NCBI GenBank assembly: GCA_018901625.1
Contig: JAHIEM010000099.1
Location: forward strand, 1-6,647
Direction of reading: 5' to 3'
DNA: 6,647 nt
From: Nanobdellota archaeon
Lineage (GTDB): Archaea > Nanobdellota > Nanobdellia > Pacearchaeales > GW2011-AR1
In this document: positions 1 through 6,647 of the stretch, piece by piece
Layout: each line of letters opens with the position of its first letter
How positions within the stretch are numbered: the first letter of the stretch is position 1
Notes under the pieces: model-generated
Seen by the model: the letters and a program-made list of their open reading frames with translations, nothing else
What the model was told of the DNA's origin: nothing
The model's database searches: none
Position numbers and translations under genes: made by a program

Positions 1-382
1 CATTTGAGATGTCTTGGGATACTGTTCGGATAGTACACTCTTTTTCATTCTGTTCTGCAATAACAAATCCTATGAATGCGTTCTTGATTATCTCTCCTAT
101 TGTTTTTACAGCAGAGAGATTGTCGTATTTTATTTTTATTATGTCACATCCCATTTTATACAAGCTCGCAAGATACCATCCAGTTGTCCTGTTGTTTAAA
201 TTGCTTATGTCAATCTCTATCTTTTTCTCTTCTTTTTTTCCTCTTCCTCCAATTACCAGCTCGCTTCCTCTCTCTTCCACATCTATCTCATCGCCTTTCT
301 TTATGCCCTGCTGCTTTACCCATTTTGAGGGTAAACTAACCACGATTGTCTGTTTTGCGAGCTGGATTGCTTTTCTTTTCAT
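1..382 (-). CDS. AbrB/SpoVT-domain DNA-binding protein; N-terminal 127 codons only, the 3' end runs off the left edge
   Basis: This ORF is not in the supplied track because it has no stop in the window. My reverse-complement translation from the ATG at 382-380 gives MKRKAIQLAKQTIVVSLPSKWVKQQGIKKGDEIDVEERGSELVIGGRGKKEEKKIEIDISNLNNRTTGWYLASLYKMGCDIIKIKYDNLSAVKTIGEIIKNAFIGFVIAEQNEKECTIRTVSQDISN, and the frame stays open to position 2. The stretch 'VVSLPSKWVKQQGIKKGDEIDVEERGSELVI' fits the SpoVT/AbrB (MazE-like) swapped-hairpin signature. A TATATAAA box on this strand (404-411) ends 21 nt before the ATG. The plus-strand ORFs listed here are low-complexity antisense shadows. Confidence 0.7.
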   Translation of the reverse strand, partial: MKRKAIQLAKQTIVVSLPSKWVKQQGIKKGDEIDVEERGSELVIGGRGKKEEKKIEIDISNLNNRTTGWYLASLYKMGCDIIKIKYDNLSAVKTIGEIIKNAFIGFVIAEQNEKECTIRTVSQDISN

Positions 383-403
383 AAATTAGTAAATTAGAAG
401 GAA

Positions 404-462: not shown

Positions 463-470
463 TATATAAA
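463..470 (+). promoter_or_regulatory. Archaeal TATA box for the four-gene operon
   Basis: The sequence is tatataaa and ends 21 nt before the ATG at 492. This implies a leaderless first cistron. Confidence 0.5.
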
Positions 471-491
471 CTTTCTGTAGTTAGTCTTTTT

Positions 492-812
492 ATGAAAAGT
501 AAAGTTTTGCTTGGAATCTTGTCATTTGGGATTCTTTTTCTTGTTTTAGTCAGTTCTATTGAAGGTGTAACTGCTGTTAGTTTCAGCAAGGGGGATCTTG
601 TTAAGGTTATCAATGCAGGAAGTATAGGTCTTGCGGTGAGAGGTCCGACTGCTTGCAGTCCATCTTTGCAAAAGGCAAGATATGATGGTTACACTGGGTA
701 TGTAATGGACGGGCCAGATAGCAGTTGTGGGGACGGGTATACTCGTTGGAAAATACACTGGGATATTGATAGTGTTGAGGGTTGGACTATTGATACTTAT
801 GGAGGCAACTGA
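492..812 (+). CDS. Small secreted protein with a bacterial-SH3-like (SH3b / SH3_3-type) domain
   Basis: This is the 106-aa track ORF. The N-terminus MKSKVLLGILSFGILFLVLVSSIEGVTA looks like a signal peptide, with a Lys-rich n-region followed by a hydrophobic core. The mature part, GDLVKVINAGSIGLAVRGPTACSPSLQKARYDGYTGYVMDGP...GYTRWKIHWDIDSVEGWTIDTY, follows the SH3b pattern (G-D-x-V, hydrophobic-x-V-R-x-G-P, G-x-x-G-x-V, W-x-(V/I), G-W). It has two Cys residues (C55 and C79 of the precursor). Confidence 0.6.
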   Translation: MKSKVLLGILSFGILFLVLVSSIEGVTAVSFSKGDLVKVINAGSIGLAVRGPTACSPSLQKARYDGYTGYVMDGPDSSCGDGYTRWKIHWDIDSVEGWTIDTYGGN

Positions 813-815
813 AAA

Positions 816-1238
816 ATGGTACGAGCATTAGTTGTTGAGGACCATGATAAATGGCAAAAGTTTCATAAAAATTGTCTAGAATCTATTTTAGGAAAAGGAA
901 GTGTAGATATTGCAAATAATTACGAGGATGCTATCTCTATGTTAAATCAAGATTATGGGGTGTATATCATAGATGGGCAATTTCTCAGATGTCCTGATGG
1001 TGACCTACAGGTATTGGGAATTCAATTAGCCAAAGAAATTGGAAAGAAAGAAGGTAGTTATGATAAAATTGTAATGGTAAGCAGCAGCGAGGATAGTTTA
1101 TCCAGAGCGCAAAGACTAGGAATAACCCAAGTTTATAATAAATTTTCTCTAAATGCTGACGAAAATGAAGTTGGTGTTTTTTCACGAGATTTGAGGGCTT
1201 TTTTATTAGATACTGAAGCTACTTTATGTGCGGGTTAA
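816..1238 (+). CDS. Stand-alone CheY-like receiver (REC) domain protein with no output domain
   Basis: The ORF encodes 140 aa. GGAGG at 801-805 lies 10 nt upstream of the ATG, and the start is 3 nt after the upstream stop. The REC landmarks are in register: acidic pocket E8-D9 (ALVVEDHD), putative phospho-acceptor D53 (VYIIDGQF), S89-S91 at the end of beta4 (IVMVSSS), and K109 (VYNKF). Confidence 0.75.
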   Translation: MVRALVVEDHDKWQKFHKNCLESILGKGSVDIANNYEDAISMLNQDYGVYIIDGQFLRCPDGDLQVLGIQLAKEIGKKEGSYDKIVMVSSSEDSLSRAQRLGITQVYNKFSLNADENEVGVFSRDLRAFLLDTEATLCAG

Positions 1239-1244
1239 ATTAAG

Positions 1245-2348
1245 ATGATAGACAAAAATTTTGAAGCAACCAAAAGCAGACATTCAGATATATCTGATTT
1301 GGAATTACATTTTTATAACATGAAATATCGGGGAATAAATGACTCTGTAATGGAGTCTGGAGGTGATAGACCAATTTTTTATCTTTTTGATGACAAAAAT
1401 TTTGGGTTGATTTCGTTTATGCTTTCTGAAGATTCTCCTTATAGGATACATAAAGACCGGATACTGTTTAATGATGAAGAATTAAATTTCAGGAATATTC
1501 TTTTTACTCGTTTAGGAAATACATTGCCGTATTATTATTTTAGAGGACCTCATGGAATGTTTCCAAGTTTGCAGGATAGTAAAATTCTTAATGTAAATTT
1601 TAATCCTAAATGCGGCGGATGTGACTTTTGTTTTTACGTATACAGGACTAAACAACTAGAAAATATCACTCCCCAACAAGGTTTTAAAAAAATTGAAGCA
1701 GAAACAGGATTAAATGAACTTAGCTGCCTGGATGAGATAGCTATTGTTACTGGGAGATTTGAATCTGAGGATATGTTAAAAGTTCACATTTTGGATGTAA
1801 TCAATCAGGCAGAAGAAAGAGGATTTGATGGAAGAATTTTTTATATTGGATCACAGTTGGTGACTCCTAGTTGTATAGGGGAAATTTCAAAGAGATTAAA
1901 AAATGATTCAGATAGGTTCAGGTGTGCTTATACTATTGAACGATTCTTTGATAGAAGTTCTATCATGCATGGATCTAAAGGAAAGAAAGATTATCCCGAG
2001 ATATTAAGTGATATGAAAAATCTTAAGAATCTTGGCGTAGGCAAATTAGAGTATACTTATCTTGTAGGTATTGAGGACTTTGATGAATTTAAACAAGGTG
2101 CTGAGGAATTAGTTCATATCGCTATACCTCATATCTCTATTCTGAGAAAGACAGGTCGAAATGCAAATCAATTAACATTGTCAAGGGATTATGTTGAAGG
2201 CGGGCCTGATTATATCTGCCAGATAAGAAAACATTATGAGGATTTATACGGTGGCAAGATTATAGGAAATAATTTTGCGAATCTATGGCTTTTTCCGATT
2301 AGTGACTTTAATTTTTCATCTTATTTAAATCGCTTATCTTCAGTTTGA
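1245..2348 (+). CDS. Radical-SAM-like enzyme with a non-canonical CX2CX2C cluster motif and a roughly 110-aa N-terminal extension of unknown function
   Basis: The ORF encodes 367 aa and starts 6 nt after the REC stop. ILNVNFNPKCGGCDFCFYVY (C123, C126, C129; nt 1611-1631) sits after a beta-strand, as in radical SAM enzymes, and keeps the aromatic residue before the last Cys. However, the first spacing is 2 residues rather than 3. Downstream there are alternating strand-like segments (EIAIVTGRFE, RIFYIGSQL, RCAYTIERF, LEYTYLVGIEDF, IPHISILRKTG) consistent with a partial TIM barrel. There is no C-terminal Cys cluster, so no SPASM or twitch domain. The gene call is firm and the family call is tentative. 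Confidence 0.6.
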   Translation: MIDKNFEATKSRHSDISDLELHFYNMKYRGINDSVMESGGDRPIFYLFDDKNFGLISFMLSEDSPYRIHKDRILFNDEELNFRNILFTRLGNTLPYYYFRGPHGMFPSLQDSKILNVNFNPKCGGCDFCFYVYRTKQLENITPQQGFKKIEAETGLNELSCLDEIAIVTGRFESEDMLKVHILDVINQAEERGFDGRIFYIGSQLVTPSCIGEISKRLKNDSDRFRCAYTIERFFDRSSIMHGSKGKKDYPEILSDMKNLKNLGVGKLEYTYLVGIEDFDEFKQGAEELVHIAIPHISILRKTGRNANQLTLSRDYVEGGPDYICQIRKHYEDLYGGKIIGNNFANLWLFPISDFNFSSYLNRLSSV

Positions 2349-2380
2349 AATTCAATAATTGTAAGGGGGTAAATGAAAAA

Positions 2381-2938
2381 ATGGGAAACTATAAAACAAC
2401 AAACACTACGGGTGCATCAGATGTTTTATTTGGGATACGCACATCTAAGGCAGAAGATCGTCGTACTGGAGAAGCTGGAAGGGGAGCAGGATTTACACAA
2501 GATGAAGCTGACAAAAGTGCATTTAGTCATCTTAAAGGAGCAGATCCTAATGATTCTCGTTATGAGGGGGGCGATAGTGGCGAAGGTTCTGGAGGAAGTT
2601 CGGGAGGAGATTCTGGAGGAAGCTGCTGTTATGTAACAACTGCATGTTTAGACGCACTGGGTTTGCCGAGAGATTCGCTGGAAATGAGAGCAATGAAAAC
2701 TCTCACAAGAGAGCATATACTCAAATCCTTTAGTGGAAAGAGAGATTATGTTTTGTACGGAAGAAAAGGACCTTTAATTGTTCAGGCAATAGGAGCAAGA
2801 GAAGATTCTCAAGGAATCTGGAAACGGATTTATGAAAAATTGCAAGATGTAACTTCTAGTGTTTTGTCTAGTAACTATGAGAGAGGTCATCAACTGTATA
2901 AAGAGTTAATCTTAGGACTAGAGGCGCAATTTGTCTGA
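2381..2938 (+). CDS. Bipartite protein of unknown function: a disordered Gly/Ser/Asp-rich N-terminal half (residues 1-81) joined to a helical C-terminal domain that begins CCYVTTAC
   Basis: The track ORF starts at a TTG at 2345. I prefer the ATG at 2381, because AAGGGGGT at 2363-2370 lies 10 nt upstream of it. This gives 185 aa: MGNYKTTNTTGASDVLFGIRTSKAEDRRTGEAGRGAGFTQDEADKSAFSHLKGADPNDSRYEGGDSGEGSGGSSGGDSGGS-CCYVTTACLDALGLPRDSLEMRAMKTLTREHIL.... By hand count, roughly four fifths of third codon positions in this frame are A/T and first positions are G-rich. That supports this frame over the overlapping frame at 2373-2636. Confidence 0.7.
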   Translation: MGNYKTTNTTGASDVLFGIRTSKAEDRRTGEAGRGAGFTQDEADKSAFSHLKGADPNDSRYEGGDSGEGSGGSSGGDSGGSCCYVTTACLDALGLPRDSLEMRAMKTLTREHILKSFSGKRDYVLYGRKGPLIVQAIGAREDSQGIWKRIYEKLQDVTSSVLSSNYERGHQLYKELILGLEAQFV

Positions 2939-2950
2939 TAATACAATTTA

Positions 2951-2972
2951 TTCTTTTTTTCTTTTTTTCTTT
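2951..2972 (+). terminator. Oligo-T terminator region after the four-gene operon
   Basis: Two T7 runs (2954-2960 and 2962-2968) follow directly after the stop at 2938. Archaeal RNA polymerase terminates at oligo-T tracts. No comparable tract lies between genes 1 to 4. Confidence 0.5.
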
Positions 2973-3002: not shown

Positions 3003-3010
3003 TTTATAAA
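3003..3010 (+). promoter_or_regulatory. Archaeal TATA box for the wHTH/SIMPL operon
   Basis: The sequence is tttataaa and ends 21 nt before the ATG at 3032. The ATG at 3023 is only 12 nt away, which argues for 3032 as the leaderless start. Confidence 0.45.
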
Positions 3011-3031
3011 TCTCAATTATCTATGTTTTTT

Positions 3032-3613
3032 ATGAATAATAAATACGTGCTGGTTTCATTTGATGATGAGAGAATGAAGAGCATTTCTGAGGTTTTAGGA
3101 AATGCGTCGTGCAAGAAGATTTTGAACTTGCTGGCTGAGAGGAACTCATCTGAAACTGATATTTCTCGCGAGTTGGGAATGCCTCTGAATACAGTTGGGT
3201 ATAATGTTAAAAAATTAGTTGAAGCTGGGCTGATTGAGAGAGCAGAACATTTCTGGAGTGTGAAGGGGAAGAAGATACCTGTTTATAGAGTTTCTCAGAA
3301 ATCAATTGTTATTTCTCCTAGGCAGAAAACAAAAACTGCACTAAAATTGCTTCCTGTTCTGATAGTTTCTGGAATAGCAGCTCTACTGATAAGGTTCTTT
3401 AGTTTTTCTGAAAAAGCGATGTTATCTGTTAATGACAAGGTTGCGGGGGCGAGTTTAGAATCTGCTCCTTCTGCTGGTGTTAATTTGGCAAGTTATTCTT
3501 TATGGGACAAGATAATTTCCCTGCCTGCTTGGGAGTGGTTTTTAGCTGGGGCTTTATTCTCTTTGATTGTTTATTTTGTTTTTAGTCTAATAGCTGAAAG
3601 GAGGAAATTTTAG
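3032..3613 (+). CDS. Membrane-anchored ArsR-family winged-helix transcription regulator-like protein
   Basis: The ORF encodes 193 aa from MNNKY. The track start at 3023 would add MFF. The N-terminal wHTH region is ISEVLGNASCKKILNLLAERNSSETDISRELGMPLNTVGYNVKKLVEAGLIERAE...KKIPVYRV (ArsR / HTH_5-like). Two hydrophobic helices follow: LKLLPVLIVSGIAALLIRFF and WEWFLAGALFSLIVYFVFSLIA. Confidence 0.75.
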   Translation: MNNKYVLVSFDDERMKSISEVLGNASCKKILNLLAERNSSETDISRELGMPLNTVGYNVKKLVEAGLIERAEHFWSVKGKKIPVYRVSQKSIVISPRQKTKTALKLLPVLIVSGIAALLIRFFSFSEKAMLSVNDKVAGASLESAPSAGVNLASYSLWDKIISLPAWEWFLAGALFSLIVYFVFSLIAERRKF

Positions 3614-3614
3614 A

Positions 3615-4355
3615 ATGGAAAAATCAGTTCAAATAACTTTGATAATTGCTGCTGCTATAATCATAGTTGCGCTTATTGGGGTATACTCCTTTTTCCAGGT
3701 TATGCCTGTAACTAGGAATACTGTGAATGTTCAGGGAACTAGCCAGGTTAAGGCTGTTCCTGACTTAGTTAGTTTGTATTTCTCTGTGCAGACTCAAGGA
3801 ACTAGCAGCCAGGAAGCTAATGATAAGAACTCGGAGATTGTTGATAATGTTATTACTAACTTAGTCAAGCTGGGATTTGAGAGAAAGGAGATAACTACTG
3901 AAGGATTTAATGTTTATCCTGATTATTCCTGGAGCAGTGGGCAACAGAAACTTATTGGATATAAAGCATCTCATAATATCAAGCTAGAGATGTCAACTTC
4001 TAGAACTGATAAAATCGGTGGAGCTATTGATGCTGGCGTAGATGCAGGGGCATTAGTAAGATATATTAATTTTGAGTTGAGTGTTGAAAAACAAAATGAG
4101 TATAAGGCTCTTGCTTTGAAACAAGCTTCAGAAGATGCGAGAATAAAAGCTGAATCTGTTGCTAGTGGATTAGGAAAGAGAGTTGGAAGCTTGGTTTCAG
4201 TATCTGTGTCAGATTTTGGATATTCTCCTTGGGCTCTATATAGCAATGATGCTATGGTTTCAGGAGCAGCAGAGGCAAAATCAGCAACTACAAGCATACA
4301 GCCTGGAGAAAAAGACATAAACGCAAATGTTCAGGCAGTTTTCAGCCTCAAGTGA
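3615..4355 (+). CDS. SIMPL (DUF541) domain protein with an N-terminal membrane anchor
   Basis: The ORF encodes 246 aa. GGAGG at 3600-3604 lies 10 nt upstream of the ATG, and the start is 1 nt after the upstream stop. The N-terminal TM segment is ITLIIAAAIIIVALIGVYSFF. The SIMPL hallmarks are present: V.G......PD......FSV......A.EA, YPDY, GY.ASH...L, ALKQASEDARIKAE..A..LG and the C-terminal IQPGEKDINANVQAVFSL. Confidence 0.8.
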   Translation: MEKSVQITLIIAAAIIIVALIGVYSFFQVMPVTRNTVNVQGTSQVKAVPDLVSLYFSVQTQGTSSQEANDKNSEIVDNVITNLVKLGFERKEITTEGFNVYPDYSWSSGQQKLIGYKASHNIKLEMSTSRTDKIGGAIDAGVDAGALVRYINFELSVEKQNEYKALALKQASEDARIKAESVASGLGKRVGSLVSVSVSDFGYSPWALYSNDAMVSGAAEAKSATTSIQPGEKDINANVQAVFSLK

Positions 4356-4399: not shown

Positions 4400-4691
4400 T
4401 CAAAATCGTAAGATTTTGAGCACTGTCAGAACCTCAAAGTCGCAAACGAGTTAGTTTCAGCGTCATTTGCTATGAGATAATTTTTTACTATTTCTTTTAT
4501 TTTTTATTTTTATTTAGTTAGTCTAAAGAAAACCTACTGAACGTGCAAATATAACAATTCACCTATAATCCTATTTAGACTTCAAAAATCCTTGACCCTC
4601 CTTGTTTGAACATGGAGTTGCGTTGGATTTTTGACAGTGTTCAAGAACCGCACGGCGTTTCACGCCTTGGACTTCAGTCCACGGTTCTTGA
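4400..4691. repeat. Cluster of related perfect palindromes and an inverted repeat flanking an AT-rich tract. Unclassified; it could be a structured RNA, a MITE or IS remnant, or a protein-binding array
   Basis: Hairpin A is TCAAAATC (4400-4407), GTAA, GATTTTGA (4412-4419). Hairpin B1 is TCAAAAATCC (4582-4591), 33 nt, GGATTTTTGA (4625-4634). Hairpin B2 is TCAAGAACCG (4641-4650), 31 nt, CGGTTCTTGA (4682-4691). The B2 loop itself folds into GGCGT-TTC-ACGCC (4654-4666) and TGGAC-TTCA-GTCCA (4668-4681). The arms of A, B1 and B2 are mutually similar. An inverted repeat, TTGAGCACTGTCA (4416-4428) and TGACAGTGTTCAA (4632-4644), matches at 12 of 13 positions. The tract at about 4475-4530 is almost pure A/T. 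Confidence 0.5.
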
Positions 4692-4740
4692 CATAGGTTA
4701 AAGAATAGATTGTCAGCTTCTGCTTGATTTTTAGATATCT

Positions 4741-4748
4741 TTTTATAT
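4741..4748 (+). promoter_or_regulatory. Archaeal TATA box for gatD
   Basis: The sequence is ttttatat and ends 20 nt before the ATG at 4769. This supports 4769 as the start rather than the upstream TTG at 4724. Confidence 0.4.
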
Positions 4749-4768
4749 CTTCATTGTTTGTGTTTTTC

Positions 4769-6034: not shown

Positions 6035-6217
6035 CTAAGAGATAGAGAACCTATTAACTGCTATCTGTTGGAGAAAAATTATCTGCTCATAAATATCAGG
6101 GGCGATTGTTTGACAATTAATTAAGGGGGGGTTATTCTTTTGGTTTTAAGCATAGTCGCTAAGAAGTCCATATCCTAAATCGCAATTAGGTTATGGATGA
6201 ATTGGAAAATAGAAAGG

Positions 6218-6225
6218 TATATAAA
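6218..6225 (+). promoter_or_regulatory. Archaeal TATA box for the small RHH-like ORF and tnpB
   Basis: The sequence is tatataaa and ends 21 nt before the ATG at 6247, the same geometry as the other promoters. It lies inside the alternative longer ORF from the ATG at 6193, which argues against that start. Confidence 0.45.
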
Positions 6226-6246
6226 GGCATTGTGTGTCTATTGTGT

Positions 6247-6366
6247 ATGAAACAAAGAACGAATATACAAATAGAACATAAAACTTTAGAAAAACTAAAA
6301 AAGTTAAGAATCACGAAAAGAGAAACTTATGACGAAATAATAAATCGTTTGATGAAACAAAAATGA
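6247..6366 (+). CDS. 39-aa ribbon-helix-helix-like (CopG / antitoxin-like) small protein
   Basis: This ORF is not in the track because it is too short. The sequence is MKQRTNIQIEHKTLEKLKKLRITKRETYDEIINRLMKQK. It reads as a short beta-strand (TNIQIE), helix 1 (HKTLEKLKKL) and helix 2 (ETYDEIINRLM), which matches an RHH layout. Its TGA stop (6364-6366) overlaps the tnpB ATG (6363-6365) as ATGA. Confidence 0.5.
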   Translation: MKQRTNIQIEHKTLEKLKKLRITKRETYDEIINRLMKQK

Positions 6367-6647
6367 CAACAACTTATAAATTCAGATTATACCCAAAAAA
6401 AGAACAACTAGACAAGTTAGACTTGTCTCTGGAAATTTGCAGACAGACTTATAATAATCTTCTCGCAGGACTTGATGAAAGATATACAAAAAATGAACTG
6501 CAAAACTATTTGCTCGATTTGAAAGTTGTAAATCCTGAAATGAATAATGTTTATTCTAAAGTCTTGCAGATGGAAAATCAAAGACTATTCTCAAACCTAT
6601 CATCACTTTCACAAAGAAAAAAACAAGGAAATAAAGTTGGAAGATTA
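6363..6647 (+). CDS. tnpB: IS200/IS605-family TnpB (OrfB) RNA-guided endonuclease; N-terminal 95 codons, truncated by the right edge of the window
   Basis: My translation is MTTTYKFRLYPKKEQLDKLDLSLEICRQTYNNLLAGLDERYTKNELQNYLLDLKVVNPEMNNVYSKVLQMENQRLFSNLSSLSQRKKQGNKVGRL, and the frame is open to the window end. 'YKFRLYPxxxQ....L......R..YN' is the hallmark N-terminus of OrfB/TnpB (HTH_OrfB_IS605 region). The later stretch 'S...Q........S......' is typical of the start of the WED/REC part. Confidence 0.85.
   Translation, partial: MTTTYKFRLYPKKEQLDKLDLSLEICRQTYNNLLAGLDERYTKNELQNYLLDLKVVNPEMNNVYSKVLQMENQRLFSNLSSLSQRKKQGNKVGRL

What the first reader, a model, noticed from the sequence alone, without database searches (positions are those of the whole stretch)
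463..2972. Four-gene leaderless operon as a candidate undescribed system: secreted SH3b-like protein, orphan receiver, atypical radical-SAM-like enzyme and a Cys-motif bipartite protein
Seen directly: there is one TATA box (463-470) and the intergenic gaps are 3, 6 and 32 nt. GGAGG-like sites precede genes 2 and 4, and the only oligo-T terminator follows gene 4. The four genes are therefore almost certainly co-transcribed. I do not recognise the combination as any named system. There is no SPASM or twitch domain, peptidase or ABC exporter, as a sactipeptide or ranthipeptide cluster would have. There is no histidine kinase or output domain for the receiver, and no nuclease, ATPase or other classical defence component. 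My working hypothesis, which is inference, is that the radical-SAM-like enzyme modifies the gene-4 protein at or near the junction of its disordered half and the CCYVTTAC domain. The receiver would gate the activity or supply a flavodoxin-fold partner, and the secreted SH3b-like protein would be the extracellular component. An AbrB-type regulator is transcribed divergently.
Basis: partly seen in the sequence, partly recalled or inferred. Interest (0 to 1): 0.82.

Follow-up and report, generated by a model that had tools for sequence, protein, structure and literature searches.

The report
Receiver plus atypical radical-SAM gene pair

Summary
The window comes from a Nanoarchaeota (DPANN) MAG. 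The gene layout is as described. The TATA box is at 463-470, the gaps are 3, 6 and 32 nt, SD-like sites precede genes 2 and 4, and a double T7 run follows gene 4.

Comparative data break the "system" apart. Gene 3 has the radical-SAM fold (AF2 pLDDT 88.8; Foldseek hits to LipA, TYW1, NosL, SuiB and viperin). It belongs to an uncurated family of about 240 clusters whose cluster loop is contracted to CX2CX(F/W)C. It has no SPASM or twitch domain and carries a conserved N-terminal domain of about 110 aa.

Gene 2 is a CheY-like receiver that keeps the acidic pocket and the invariant Asp. It lies directly upstream of gene 3 in 8 of 9 loci of that clade. Elsewhere the pair is followed by a P-loop kinase and a methyltransferase, or by GrpB, which also occurs fused to the enzyme. 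A deeper clade pairs the enzyme with a B12-radical-SAM enzyme.

Gene 4 is a divergent CFI-box-CTERM protein (hhalign 99.8%). It never accompanies gene 3 elsewhere, usually stands alone, and occurs in phage tail modules. Gene 1 is not conserved with the pair. I found no support for the idea that the enzyme modifies gene 4.

Verdict: a new variant of a known kind, of moderate interest.

The parts
1..385 (-). g0: N-terminal part of a divergently transcribed protein of about 300 aa with an AbrB/MazE-type (SpoVT) domain. It runs off the window.
   Evidence: Translation. Full-length homologues (304-308 aa) hit PF04014. It is syntenic with g4 homologues in L032, L033/L039, L035 and L037, and with g2-g3 in L001.
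463..470 (+). TATA-box-like TATATAAA, centred about 26 nt upstream of the g1 ATG. This implies a leaderless transcript.
   Evidence: Sequence. Its function is inferred. Other TATA-like words lie at 404 and 441.
492..812 (+). g1: a 106-aa protein with an N-terminal hydrophobic signal or anchor and a beta-rich domain of about 75 aa. Not a conserved partner of g2-g3.
   Evidence: No Pfam, NCBIfam or PDB hit. It is 35% identical to the N-terminal module of a 713-aa Peptidase_M23 protein downstream of g3 in L001.
816..1238 (+). g2: a stand-alone CheY-like receiver domain protein (140 aa). It is the conserved upstream partner of g3.
   Evidence: PF00072 E 8.5e-6, 26.3 bits, below the gathering score. 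The alignment with CheY keeps the acidic pair E8-D9, the invariant D53, and Ser and Lys residues aligned at CheY T87 and K109. It lies directly upstream of g3 in L001, L004, L009 and L011, and in divergent form in L007, L014 and L047.
1245..2348 (+). g3: a 367-aa radical-SAM-fold enzyme of an uncurated family. It has an N-terminal domain of about 110 aa and a partial (beta/alpha)6 barrel, with no auxiliary-cluster domain.
   Evidence: No Pfam or NCBIfam hit. AF2 pLDDT 88.8. Foldseek against PDB returns LipA, TYW1, NosL, SuiB, BlsE, SkfB, viperin-like and HydE at probability 1.0. The family has 240 representative clusters.
1611..1631 (+). Codons for C123-G-G-C126-D-F-C129, the contracted CX2CX(aromatic)C cluster-binding loop after beta-strand 1.
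   Evidence: The motif is present in 24 of 25 family loci, and one member has CX3CX2C. The HMM alignment to the viperin-like CX3CX2C motif needs a 1-residue gap. The loop position after E114-117 is seen in the model.
2381..2938 (+). g4: a 185-aa protein with a variable small N-terminal alpha/beta domain (1-52), a Gly/Ser-rich disordered linker (54-80) and a C-terminal helical CFI-box-CTERM-type domain (about 78-185).
   Evidence: hhalign of A2 against bona fide CFI-box proteins gives probability 99.8%, E 2e-27. No direct NF041770 hit.
2624..2647 (+). Codons for C82-C83-Y-V-T-T-A-C89, the 'CFI box' at the start of the helical domain.
   Evidence: C83 and C89 are invariant. The third Cys of canonical CFI boxes (the DDC position) is Ser in the DPANN branch.
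2954..2968 (+). Two T7 runs, a likely archaeal oligo-T terminator after g4.
   Evidence: Its function is inferred.

Best explanation
The locus is a probable single transcription unit in a DPANN archaeon, but its functional core is the gene 2-gene 3 pair.

Gene 3 is a radical SAM superfamily enzyme of a previously uncurated family. Its three invariant cysteines (C123, C126, C129) sit on the loop after the first barrel strand, with a CX2CX(F/W)C spacing that is one residue shorter than the canonical motif. I infer that they bind a site-differentiated [4Fe-4S] cluster that cleaves SAM to a 5'-deoxyadenosyl radical.

The strongly conserved N-terminal domain of about 110 aa (invariant or near-invariant K27, G30, R42, P43, S64, P65, Y98, R100) is inferred to hold the substrate. 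Three lines point to a small molecule or nucleotide-like compound rather than a peptide: the conservation of that domain, the absence of a SPASM, twitch or RRE domain, and the neighbours in other genomes. Those neighbours are an AAA_33/KTI12-like P-loop kinase, a class-I methyltransferase, GrpB (also fused to the enzyme), a histidine phosphatase, a sugar-phosphate-isomerase-like TIM barrel, an MFS fusion and a B12-radical-SAM enzyme.

Gene 2 is a single-domain CheY-like receiver that keeps its phospho-acceptor pocket. I infer that it is a regulatory or adaptor partner that couples the enzyme's activity to phosphorylation.

Genes 1 and 4 are lineage-specific passengers that happen to share the transcript. 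Gene 1 is a secreted small domain. Gene 4 is a CFI-box-CTERM protein that in related genomes sits at the far end of a variable slot next to the AbrB-type gene.

What is shown: the fold, the motif, the gene order and its conservation, and the CFI-box homology. What is inferred: cluster binding, SAM cleavage, substrate class and the regulatory role of gene 2.
For: - Fold: AF2 model pLDDT 88.8. The top 15 Foldseek PDB hits are all radical SAM enzymes at probability 1.0. 3 of 18 family members give PF04055 hits. The PDB profile hit aligns the Cys loop to a viperin-like CX3CX2C motif with a one-residue gap.
- Motif: CX2CX(F/W)C in 24 of 25 loci, and the canonical CX3CX2C in one member. Only these Cys are conserved.
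- g2-g3 linkage: g2 homologues lie immediately upstream, often overlapping, in L001, L004, L009 and L011. Divergent receivers lie upstream in L007, L014 and L047, with hhalign probability 90%, E 1.6e-6.
- Receiver residues.
- Other neighbours: kinase plus methyltransferase in L007, L047 and L016. GrpB as a neighbour in L010, and GrpB and MFS fusions. B12-rSAM in 11 loci of the deep clade.
- g4 independence.
- g4 is a CFI-box protein.
Against: - No biochemical evidence exists for any family member.
- The window protein itself gets no Pfam or NCBIfam hit.
- A contracted cluster loop has not been shown to support SAM cleavage.
- The neighbours vary, so the substrate class is a weak inference.
- No histidine kinase is seen near any g2.
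- The tight spacing and SD site before g4 show that g4 is expressed with the pair here.
- Several loci are from closely related genomes, so the count of independent observations is smaller than the count of loci.
Confidence: 0.5

Rival explanations
1. The radical-SAM-like enzyme post-translationally modifies the gene-4 protein at or near the Cys-rich CFI box, for example by a thioether or other cross-link. Genes 1 and 2 would be accessory parts of a dedicated four-gene system.
For: - g3 and g4 are adjacent with a 32-nt gap and an SD site, and no TATA box lies at -25 of g4.
- Invariant Cys residues sit at the linker/domain junction.
- In L033/L039 an unrelated radical SAM/SPASM enzyme ends 2 nt before a g4 homologue.
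Against: - 0 of 26 other distinct g3-family loci carries a g4 homologue.
- 8 of 9 other distinct g4 contexts have no radical SAM neighbour.
- CFI-box proteins are widespread in bacteria and in phage tail modules.
- g3 lacks SPASM, twitch and RRE features.
- The g4 C-terminal domain is a confidently folded helical bundle, not a short core peptide.
Confidence: 0.12
2. Gene 3 is a catalytically degenerate radical-SAM-fold protein. The contracted motif would bind a structural or redox cluster, or no cluster, and would not generate a 5'-deoxyadenosyl radical. The protein would act as a sensor or scaffold controlled by, or controlling, the receiver.
For: - No PF04055 hit for the window protein.
- The CX2CX2C spacing is ferredoxin-like.
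- It is absent from the list of tolerated motif variants in RadicalSAM.org, where every variant lengthens the first spacer (PMC9477430).
Against: - All three Cys are strictly conserved, as is the aromatic residue before the third Cys.
- One member has the canonical spacing.
- Residues are conserved at the positions expected for SAM-binding strands: VTGxF..E, YxGS, TxE and YxVGIE.
- The family is associated with biosynthetic enzymes.
Confidence: 0.12
3. The receiver (gene 2) is the protein substrate or the electron-transfer partner of the enzyme, rather than a regulator.
For: - Tight, often overlapping g2-g3 gene pairs.
- Receivers share the flavodoxin-like fold, which is general knowledge.
- No histidine kinase appears in any neighbourhood examined.
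Against: - g2 matches Response_reg rather than flavodoxin models, and it keeps the Asp pocket rather than FMN-binding loops.
- Deeper branches of the g3 family lack g2 altogether. g2 is therefore an accessory of one clade and not the family's substrate.
Confidence: 0.12

Closest known systems
Radical SAM superfamily (PF04055); nearest solved structures are LipA (5exk, 4u0o), TYW1 (6djt), NosL (4r33), SuiB, SkfB, BlsE, viperin-like (9dfu) and HydE
   Same: - Partial (beta/alpha)6 barrel.
- A three-Cys loop directly after strand 1, with an aromatic residue before the last Cys.
- Conserved residues on strands 2-5 where SAM is bound.
   Different: - The first Cys spacer is 2 residues, not 3. Catalogued variants all lengthen it (PMC9477430).
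- No Pfam or NCBIfam model captures the window protein.
- It has a family-specific N-terminal domain of about 110 aa.
- It has no auxiliary cluster domain.
- The substrate is unknown.
Single-domain CheY-like response regulators (PF00072)
   Same: - Size of about 120-140 aa.
- The acidic pair, the phospho-acceptor Asp, and Ser and Lys residues that align with CheY's T87 and K109.
   Different: - The score is below Pfam's gathering threshold.
- No kinase gene lies nearby.
- It is genetically coupled to a radical SAM enzyme rather than to a motor or a transcription output.
CFI-box-CTERM domain proteins (NCBIfam NF041770)
   Same: - g4 has a variable N-terminal part and a Gly/Ser linker.
- It has the C-[FY]-[ILV]-T-T-A-C box followed by a helical domain of about 100 aa.
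- Profile-profile probability is 99.8%.
   Different: - The DPANN branch does not reach the HMM cut-off.
- The third conserved Cys is replaced by Ser, and a Cys is added before the box.
- The function of the whole family is unknown.
Radical SAM/SPASM peptide-maturase clusters (sactipeptide, ranthipeptide and anSME-type)
   Same: A radical-SAM-fold gene lies next to a gene for a Cys-containing protein. One g4 homologue (L033/L039) does sit behind a SPASM enzyme.
   Different: - g3 has no SPASM or twitch domain.
- There is no short leader/core precursor, no protease and no exporter.
- The enzyme-'substrate' pairing is not conserved.

Membership tests
Radical SAM superfamily | Partial (beta/alpha)6 TIM-barrel core | tested here: met
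   AF2 model pLDDT 88.8. Foldseek against PDB returns LipA, TYW1, NosL, SuiB and others at probability 1.0, with TM about 0.40-0.45 over about 240-310 columns.
Radical SAM superfamily | CX3CX2C motif after strand 1 | tested here: not met
   The window protein and 24 of 25 family loci have CX2CX2C. One member has CX3CX2C. Three Cys and the aromatic residue are conserved, so this is a contracted variant of the motif.
Radical SAM superfamily | PF04055 score at or above the gathering threshold | tested here: not met
   No hit at E<=1 for the window protein. Only 3 of 18 relatives hit, with a best E of 9.6e-7.
Radical SAM superfamily | [4Fe-4S]-dependent reductive cleavage of SAM | not testable with these tools
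   Needs anaerobic reconstitution and a 5'-deoxyadenosine assay.
Response regulator receiver (PF00072) | Profile match above the gathering score | tested here: not met
   E 8.5e-6, 26.3 bits against a cut-off of 30.2. Homologues score 14-25.7 bits.
Response regulator receiver (PF00072) | Acidic pair, phospho-acceptor Asp, conserved Ser/Thr and Lys | tested here: met
   The alignment with CheY shows E8-D9, D53 invariant in all 7 sequences, and Ser and Lys residues aligned at CheY T87 and K109 in the g2-type branch (S89, S90 and K109 are invariant among the four g2-type proteins).
CFI-box-CTERM (NF041770) | HMM hit above the curated cut-off | tested here: not met
   No NCBIfam hit for g4 at E<=1. 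More distant relatives found with the g4 profile score 40.6-58.9 bits against a cut-off of 40.
CFI-box-CTERM (NF041770) | Homology of the C-terminal domain, including the C-[FY]-x-T-T-A-C box | tested here: met
   hhalign of A2 against A5 gives probability 99.8%, E 2e-27 over 110 columns. Motif conservation is shown.
Radical-SAM peptide or protein maturation cluster (RiPP-like) | Conserved co-occurrence of the enzyme and its substrate gene | tested here: not met
   No g4 homologue in 26 other distinct g3 loci. A radical SAM enzyme lies next to g4 in only 1 of 9 other distinct g4 contexts.
Radical-SAM peptide or protein maturation cluster (RiPP-like) | SPASM, twitch or RRE domain, protease and exporter | tested here: not met
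   There are no conserved Cys beyond the three of the loop. No such domains or genes are present in the window.
SH3b (PF08239) for gene 1 | Profile or structural match to bacterial SH3 domains | tested here: inconclusive
   No Pfam hit at E<=10 and no PDB profile hit. The only indirect support is its reuse as the N-terminal module of an M23 peptidase.
Known anti-phage defence systems (PADLOC) | Match to a defence-system protein model | tested here: not met
   The only hit is a local 18-bit match of g3 to AbiP, E 4.8e-4.

The most novel reading that the evidence does not exclude
The g2-g3 pair could be the first example of a radical SAM enzyme placed under direct two-component-type (phospho-receiver) control. 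Its family could also be the first radical SAM clade shown to work with a contracted CX2CX2C cluster loop. With its kinase, methyltransferase and GrpB partners it would make an as yet unknown modified nucleotide or metabolite in DPANN archaea and CPR-like organisms.
Probability: 0.25. Interest if true: 0.6.

Novelty: new variant of a known kind. Interest (0 to 1): 0.42.

Why it matters
If the contracted CX2CX(F/W)C loop supports SAM cleavage, it widens the sequence definition used to mine radical SAM enzymes. The variants listed in the RadicalSAM.org paper all lengthen the first spacer, and this family escapes Pfam and NCBIfam.

A receiver domain hard-wired to such an enzyme would be an unusual way to gate radical chemistry. 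It would also be a rare glimpse of signalling in genome-reduced DPANN archaea.

The negative result matters as well. The attractive 'enzyme plus Cys-rich substrate' reading comes from local gene order, and gene 4 belongs to a widespread but unstudied domain family (CFI-box-CTERM) that also occurs in phage tail modules.

Tried and rejected
- Pfam and NCBIfam on g1, g3 and g4 gave no hits.
- phmmer of g3 against PDB gave nothing.
- The genome-contig scan with the g3 alignment failed for lack of a conserved block. That single scan was then spent on g4.
- The viral-contig scan for g3 found no relatives.
- Foldseek of the g4 model against PDB gave no significant match. The best E was 0.086, with only local dsRBD-like hits to the N-terminal 50 aa.
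- PHROGs and Pfam on the phage CFI-box proteins gave no family.
- The SH3b test for g1, using a two-sequence profile against PDB and Pfam at E<=10, gave nothing.
- hhalign of the g3 family against a single SPASM enzyme was uninformative.
- Literature searches for CX2CX2C radical SAM enzymes and for 'CFI-box' or 'CFIATAAYG' found nothing relevant.
- The sigma-70 promoter and hairpin-terminator scan does not apply to archaea, and its counts were at chance level.
- PADLOC gave no credible defence hit.

Ideas considered and rejected:
- g2 as a flavodoxin. It has an Asp pocket, not FMN loops.
- g4 as a lipoprotein or signal-peptide protein. It has no N-terminal hydrophobic segment.
- g3 as a viperin homologue. 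Only the Cys loop aligns, and the fold hits are generic.


Full report
**Origin and layout**

The gene-3 and gene-4 products are identical to hypothetical proteins KKE50_04795 and KKE50_04800 of a Nanoarchaeota (DPANN) MAG. An archaeal GatD gene lies downstream.

The window has the following features:
- A divergent AbrB/MazE-type gene at 1-385 on the minus strand.
- Four co-oriented genes on the plus strand: g1 492-812, g2 816-1238, g3 1245-2348 and g4 2381-2938, separated by 3, 6 and 32 nt.
- TATATAAA at 463-470, centred about 26 nt before the g1 ATG. This is compatible with a leaderless start.
- GGAGG before g2 and GGGGG before g4.
- Two T7 runs at 2954-2968 after g4.

The physical observation is therefore correct. 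Two qualifications apply. T6 runs also occur inside g2 and g3 (1177, 1199, 1375, 1837). The AT-rich intergenic region contains further TATA-like words (404, 441).

**Gene 3**

Single-sequence searches gave nothing in Pfam, NCBIfam or PDB. The word-indexed homology search found 25 relatives.

An alignment of 18 of them (A1) shows only three conserved cysteines: C123 and C126 invariant, and C129 near-invariant. It also shows conserved blocks at VTGxFxSE, YxGS, TxExFxxR, YxYxxG and PH..I.R.

An AlphaFold2 model built on that alignment is confident (mean pLDDT 88.8, pTM 0.88). Foldseek against the PDB returns only radical SAM enzymes at the top: LipA, TYW1, NosL, SuiB, BlsE, SkfB, a viperin-like enzyme and HydE. 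These hits have probability 1.0 and TM of about 0.40-0.45 on the query. The modest TM values fit an extra N-terminal domain of about 110 residues.

The Cys loop follows strand E114-117, where the radical SAM cluster loop sits. A profile search of the PDB aligns it to the CX3CX2C motif of a viperin-like enzyme with a one-residue gap.

Across 25 loci the motif is CX2CX(F/W)C in 24 and the canonical CX3CX2C in one. This argues that the loop is a contracted form of the standard motif. The RadicalSAM.org paper (PMC9477430) lists tolerated variants with first spacers of 4 to 11 residues. It lists none shorter than three.

An exhaustive profile search of 1.84 billion representatives finds 240 clusters at E<=1e-3 and 68 at E<=1e-30. 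This is a real but small family with no curated model. There is no SPASM or twitch domain and no further conserved Cys.

**Gene 2**

Pfam's Response_reg matches at E 8.5e-6 but below the gathering score. An alignment with CheY places E8-D9 on the acidic pair and D53 on the phospho-acceptor Asp, where it is invariant in all sequences. Ser and Lys residues of the g2-type branch align with CheY T87 and K109 (S89, S90 and K109 are invariant among the four g2-type proteins). It is a receiver and not a flavodoxin.

**Conservation of gene order around gene 3**

I collected 27 distinct g3-family loci, counting the window. I searched them with all window proteins and clustered the neighbours.

Within the clade with at least 49% identity to g3:
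- A g2 homologue lies immediately upstream, often overlapping, in the window, L001, L004, L009 and L011.
- A divergent receiver-like protein lies upstream in L007, L014 and L047, with hhalign probability 90%, E 1.6e-6 and the Asp aligned.
- Only L010 lacks one, so the count is 8 of 9 loci.

No other g3 locus has a g4 homologue. The only other g1-like sequence is the N-terminal module of a 713-aa M23 peptidase downstream of g3 in L001. L001 is a close relative that also shares the AbrB and GatD synteny.

What follows g3 elsewhere:
- L047: an AAA_33/KTI12-like P-loop kinase and a class-I methyltransferase, with overlapping genes.
- L007: the same two domains fused.
- L016: the kinase alone, with a histidine phosphatase upstream.
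- L010: GrpB.
- L004: an AP_endonuc_2-type TIM barrel.
- GrpB-enzyme and MFS-enzyme fusions also exist.

A deeper clade (33-37% identity, 11 loci) is paired with a B12-binding radical SAM enzyme, and usually with a convergent 290-aa protein of unknown family.

This pattern of partners suggests small-molecule or nucleotide-type chemistry. So does the strongly conserved N-terminal domain with invariant Arg, Ser and Tyr residues. The point is an inference.

**Gene 4**

Its relatives (A2) share four elements:
- a variable N-terminal region;
- a Gly/Ser-rich linker;
- an invariant C-Y-[VI]-T-T-A-C box;
- a conserved C-terminal domain of about 100 residues.

The AF2 model gives a small alpha/beta domain at 1-52, a disordered stretch at 54-80 and a helical bundle at 84-185 with block-mean pLDDT above 90. 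It has no significant PDB fold match.

A scan of viral contigs found two phage proteins with the same box and the LRxFRD signature. They lie in tail modules just after an NlpC/P60 minor tail protein. A profile that included them recovered 137 proteins, one of which NCBI names 'CFI-box-CTERM domain-containing'. Those distant relatives and the phage proteins score above the NF041770 cut-off. A profile-profile comparison of the DPANN family with them gives 99.8% probability, E 2e-27.

Gene 4 is therefore a divergent CFI-box-CTERM protein. The third conserved Cys of the canonical family is Ser here. I found no literature on this domain.

**Contexts of gene 4**

| Locus | Arrangement |
|---|---|
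| L032/L038, L037 | AbrB-type gene (divergent), one small gene, g4 |
| L035 | AbrB-type gene, three small genes, g4 |
| L033/L039 | AbrB-type gene, a 183-aa gene, a canonical radical SAM/SPASM enzyme, g4 (2-nt gap) |
| L040, L043-L046 | g4 alone behind its own TATA box or SD site, with unrelated neighbours |

The space between the AbrB-type gene and g4 is a variable slot among related Nano- and Pacearchaeota. In the window it holds g1-g2-g3.

Two different radical SAM enzymes directly upstream of g4 homologues is suggestive. However, that makes 2 of about 10 distinct contexts, and the phage and bacterial members have none. I put the enzyme-substrate reading at about 0.12.

**Gene 1**

It has an N-terminal hydrophobic segment and a beta-rich region whose pattern resembles SH3b. 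Its reuse at the N-terminus of an M23 peptidase fits a surface or wall-binding module.

**Interpretation**

The best-supported reading is a conserved two-gene module: a CheY-like receiver plus a radical SAM enzyme with a contracted cluster loop and its own substrate domain. In this genome the module is embedded in a transcript with two unrelated lineage-specific genes.

The fold, the motif, the gene-order statistics and the CFI-box homology are shown. Cluster binding, SAM cleavage, the substrate class and the regulatory role of the receiver are inferred.

None of the four proteins gives a credible match to known defence systems. No RNA family or tRNA lies in the window.

**Verdict**

The four-gene-system interpretation is only partly supported, for the g2-g3 core. 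The proposed mechanism, modification of gene 4, is not supported.

The finding is a new variant of a known kind: an uncurated radical SAM clade with an uncatalogued CX2CX2C loop and a receiver partner. Its interest is moderate.

Noticed in passing
window 4585-4705 (intergenic, between the SIMPL gene ending at 4355 and GatD starting at about 4724-4760): A GC-richer stretch folds into two strong hairpins. MFE is -44.2 kcal/mol with z = -4.2 on the plus strand, and z = -4.1 on the minus strand. There is no Rfam match even at E<=1 and no tRNA. It is a candidate structured non-coding RNA.
   Followed up: partly
window 6363-6647 (+), running off the window: This is the N-terminus of an IS605 OrfB/TnpB-like protein (PF12323 HTH_OrfB_IS605, E 1e-11). 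Its ATG overlaps the stop codon of the 57-aa DUF7557 gene at 6193-6366 (ATGA). A mobile element or an RNA-guided nuclease relative therefore borders the region.
   Followed up: partly
L041:4469-5011 and L042:4761-5324 (IMG/VR viral contigs): CFI-box-CTERM proteins are encoded in phage tail-gene modules. They lie directly after a long tail-fibre or host-specificity-like protein and an NlpC/P60 minor tail protein. This is an unstudied domain family shared by phages, bacteria and DPANN archaea.
   Followed up: partly
L033:1214-2838 and L039:3766-5390: A canonical radical SAM/SPASM enzyme (369 aa) ends 2 nt before a g4-type CFI-box gene in a Pacearchaeota MAG. It is the only other radical SAM neighbour of this family that I saw. 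It might mark a real enzyme-substrate pair unrelated to g3.
   Followed up: partly
L018-L029 (e.g. L019:3653-6941): A deeper clade of the g3 family (33-37% identity) is consistently paired with a B12-binding radical SAM enzyme whose gene overlaps its start. Usually there is also a convergent 290-aa protein with no Pfam family. L023 and L025 additionally share a roughly 270-aa protein of unknown family.
   Followed up: partly
L047:1798-4615; L007:5572-8332: A recurrent four-gene operon with overlapping genes: receiver-like protein, g3-family enzyme, AAA_33/KTI12-like P-loop kinase and class-I methyltransferase. The kinase and methyltransferase are fused in L007. It is a better candidate for a conserved 'system' than the window's own four genes.
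   Followed up: partly
L010 (contig Ga0156069_109) / protein P0006: A g3 homologue with 72% identity is labelled Candidatus Daviesbacteria (bacterial CPR) in NCBI. It has GrpB downstream and no receiver upstream. This reflects either mis-binning or DPANN-CPR gene transfer.
   Followed up: no
window 3003-3040: The HTH/ArsR-like gene g5 has two in-frame ATGs, at 3023 and 3032. TTTATAAA at 3003-3010 lies only 13 nt before the first. The second ATG may therefore be the real, leaderless start.
   Followed up: no
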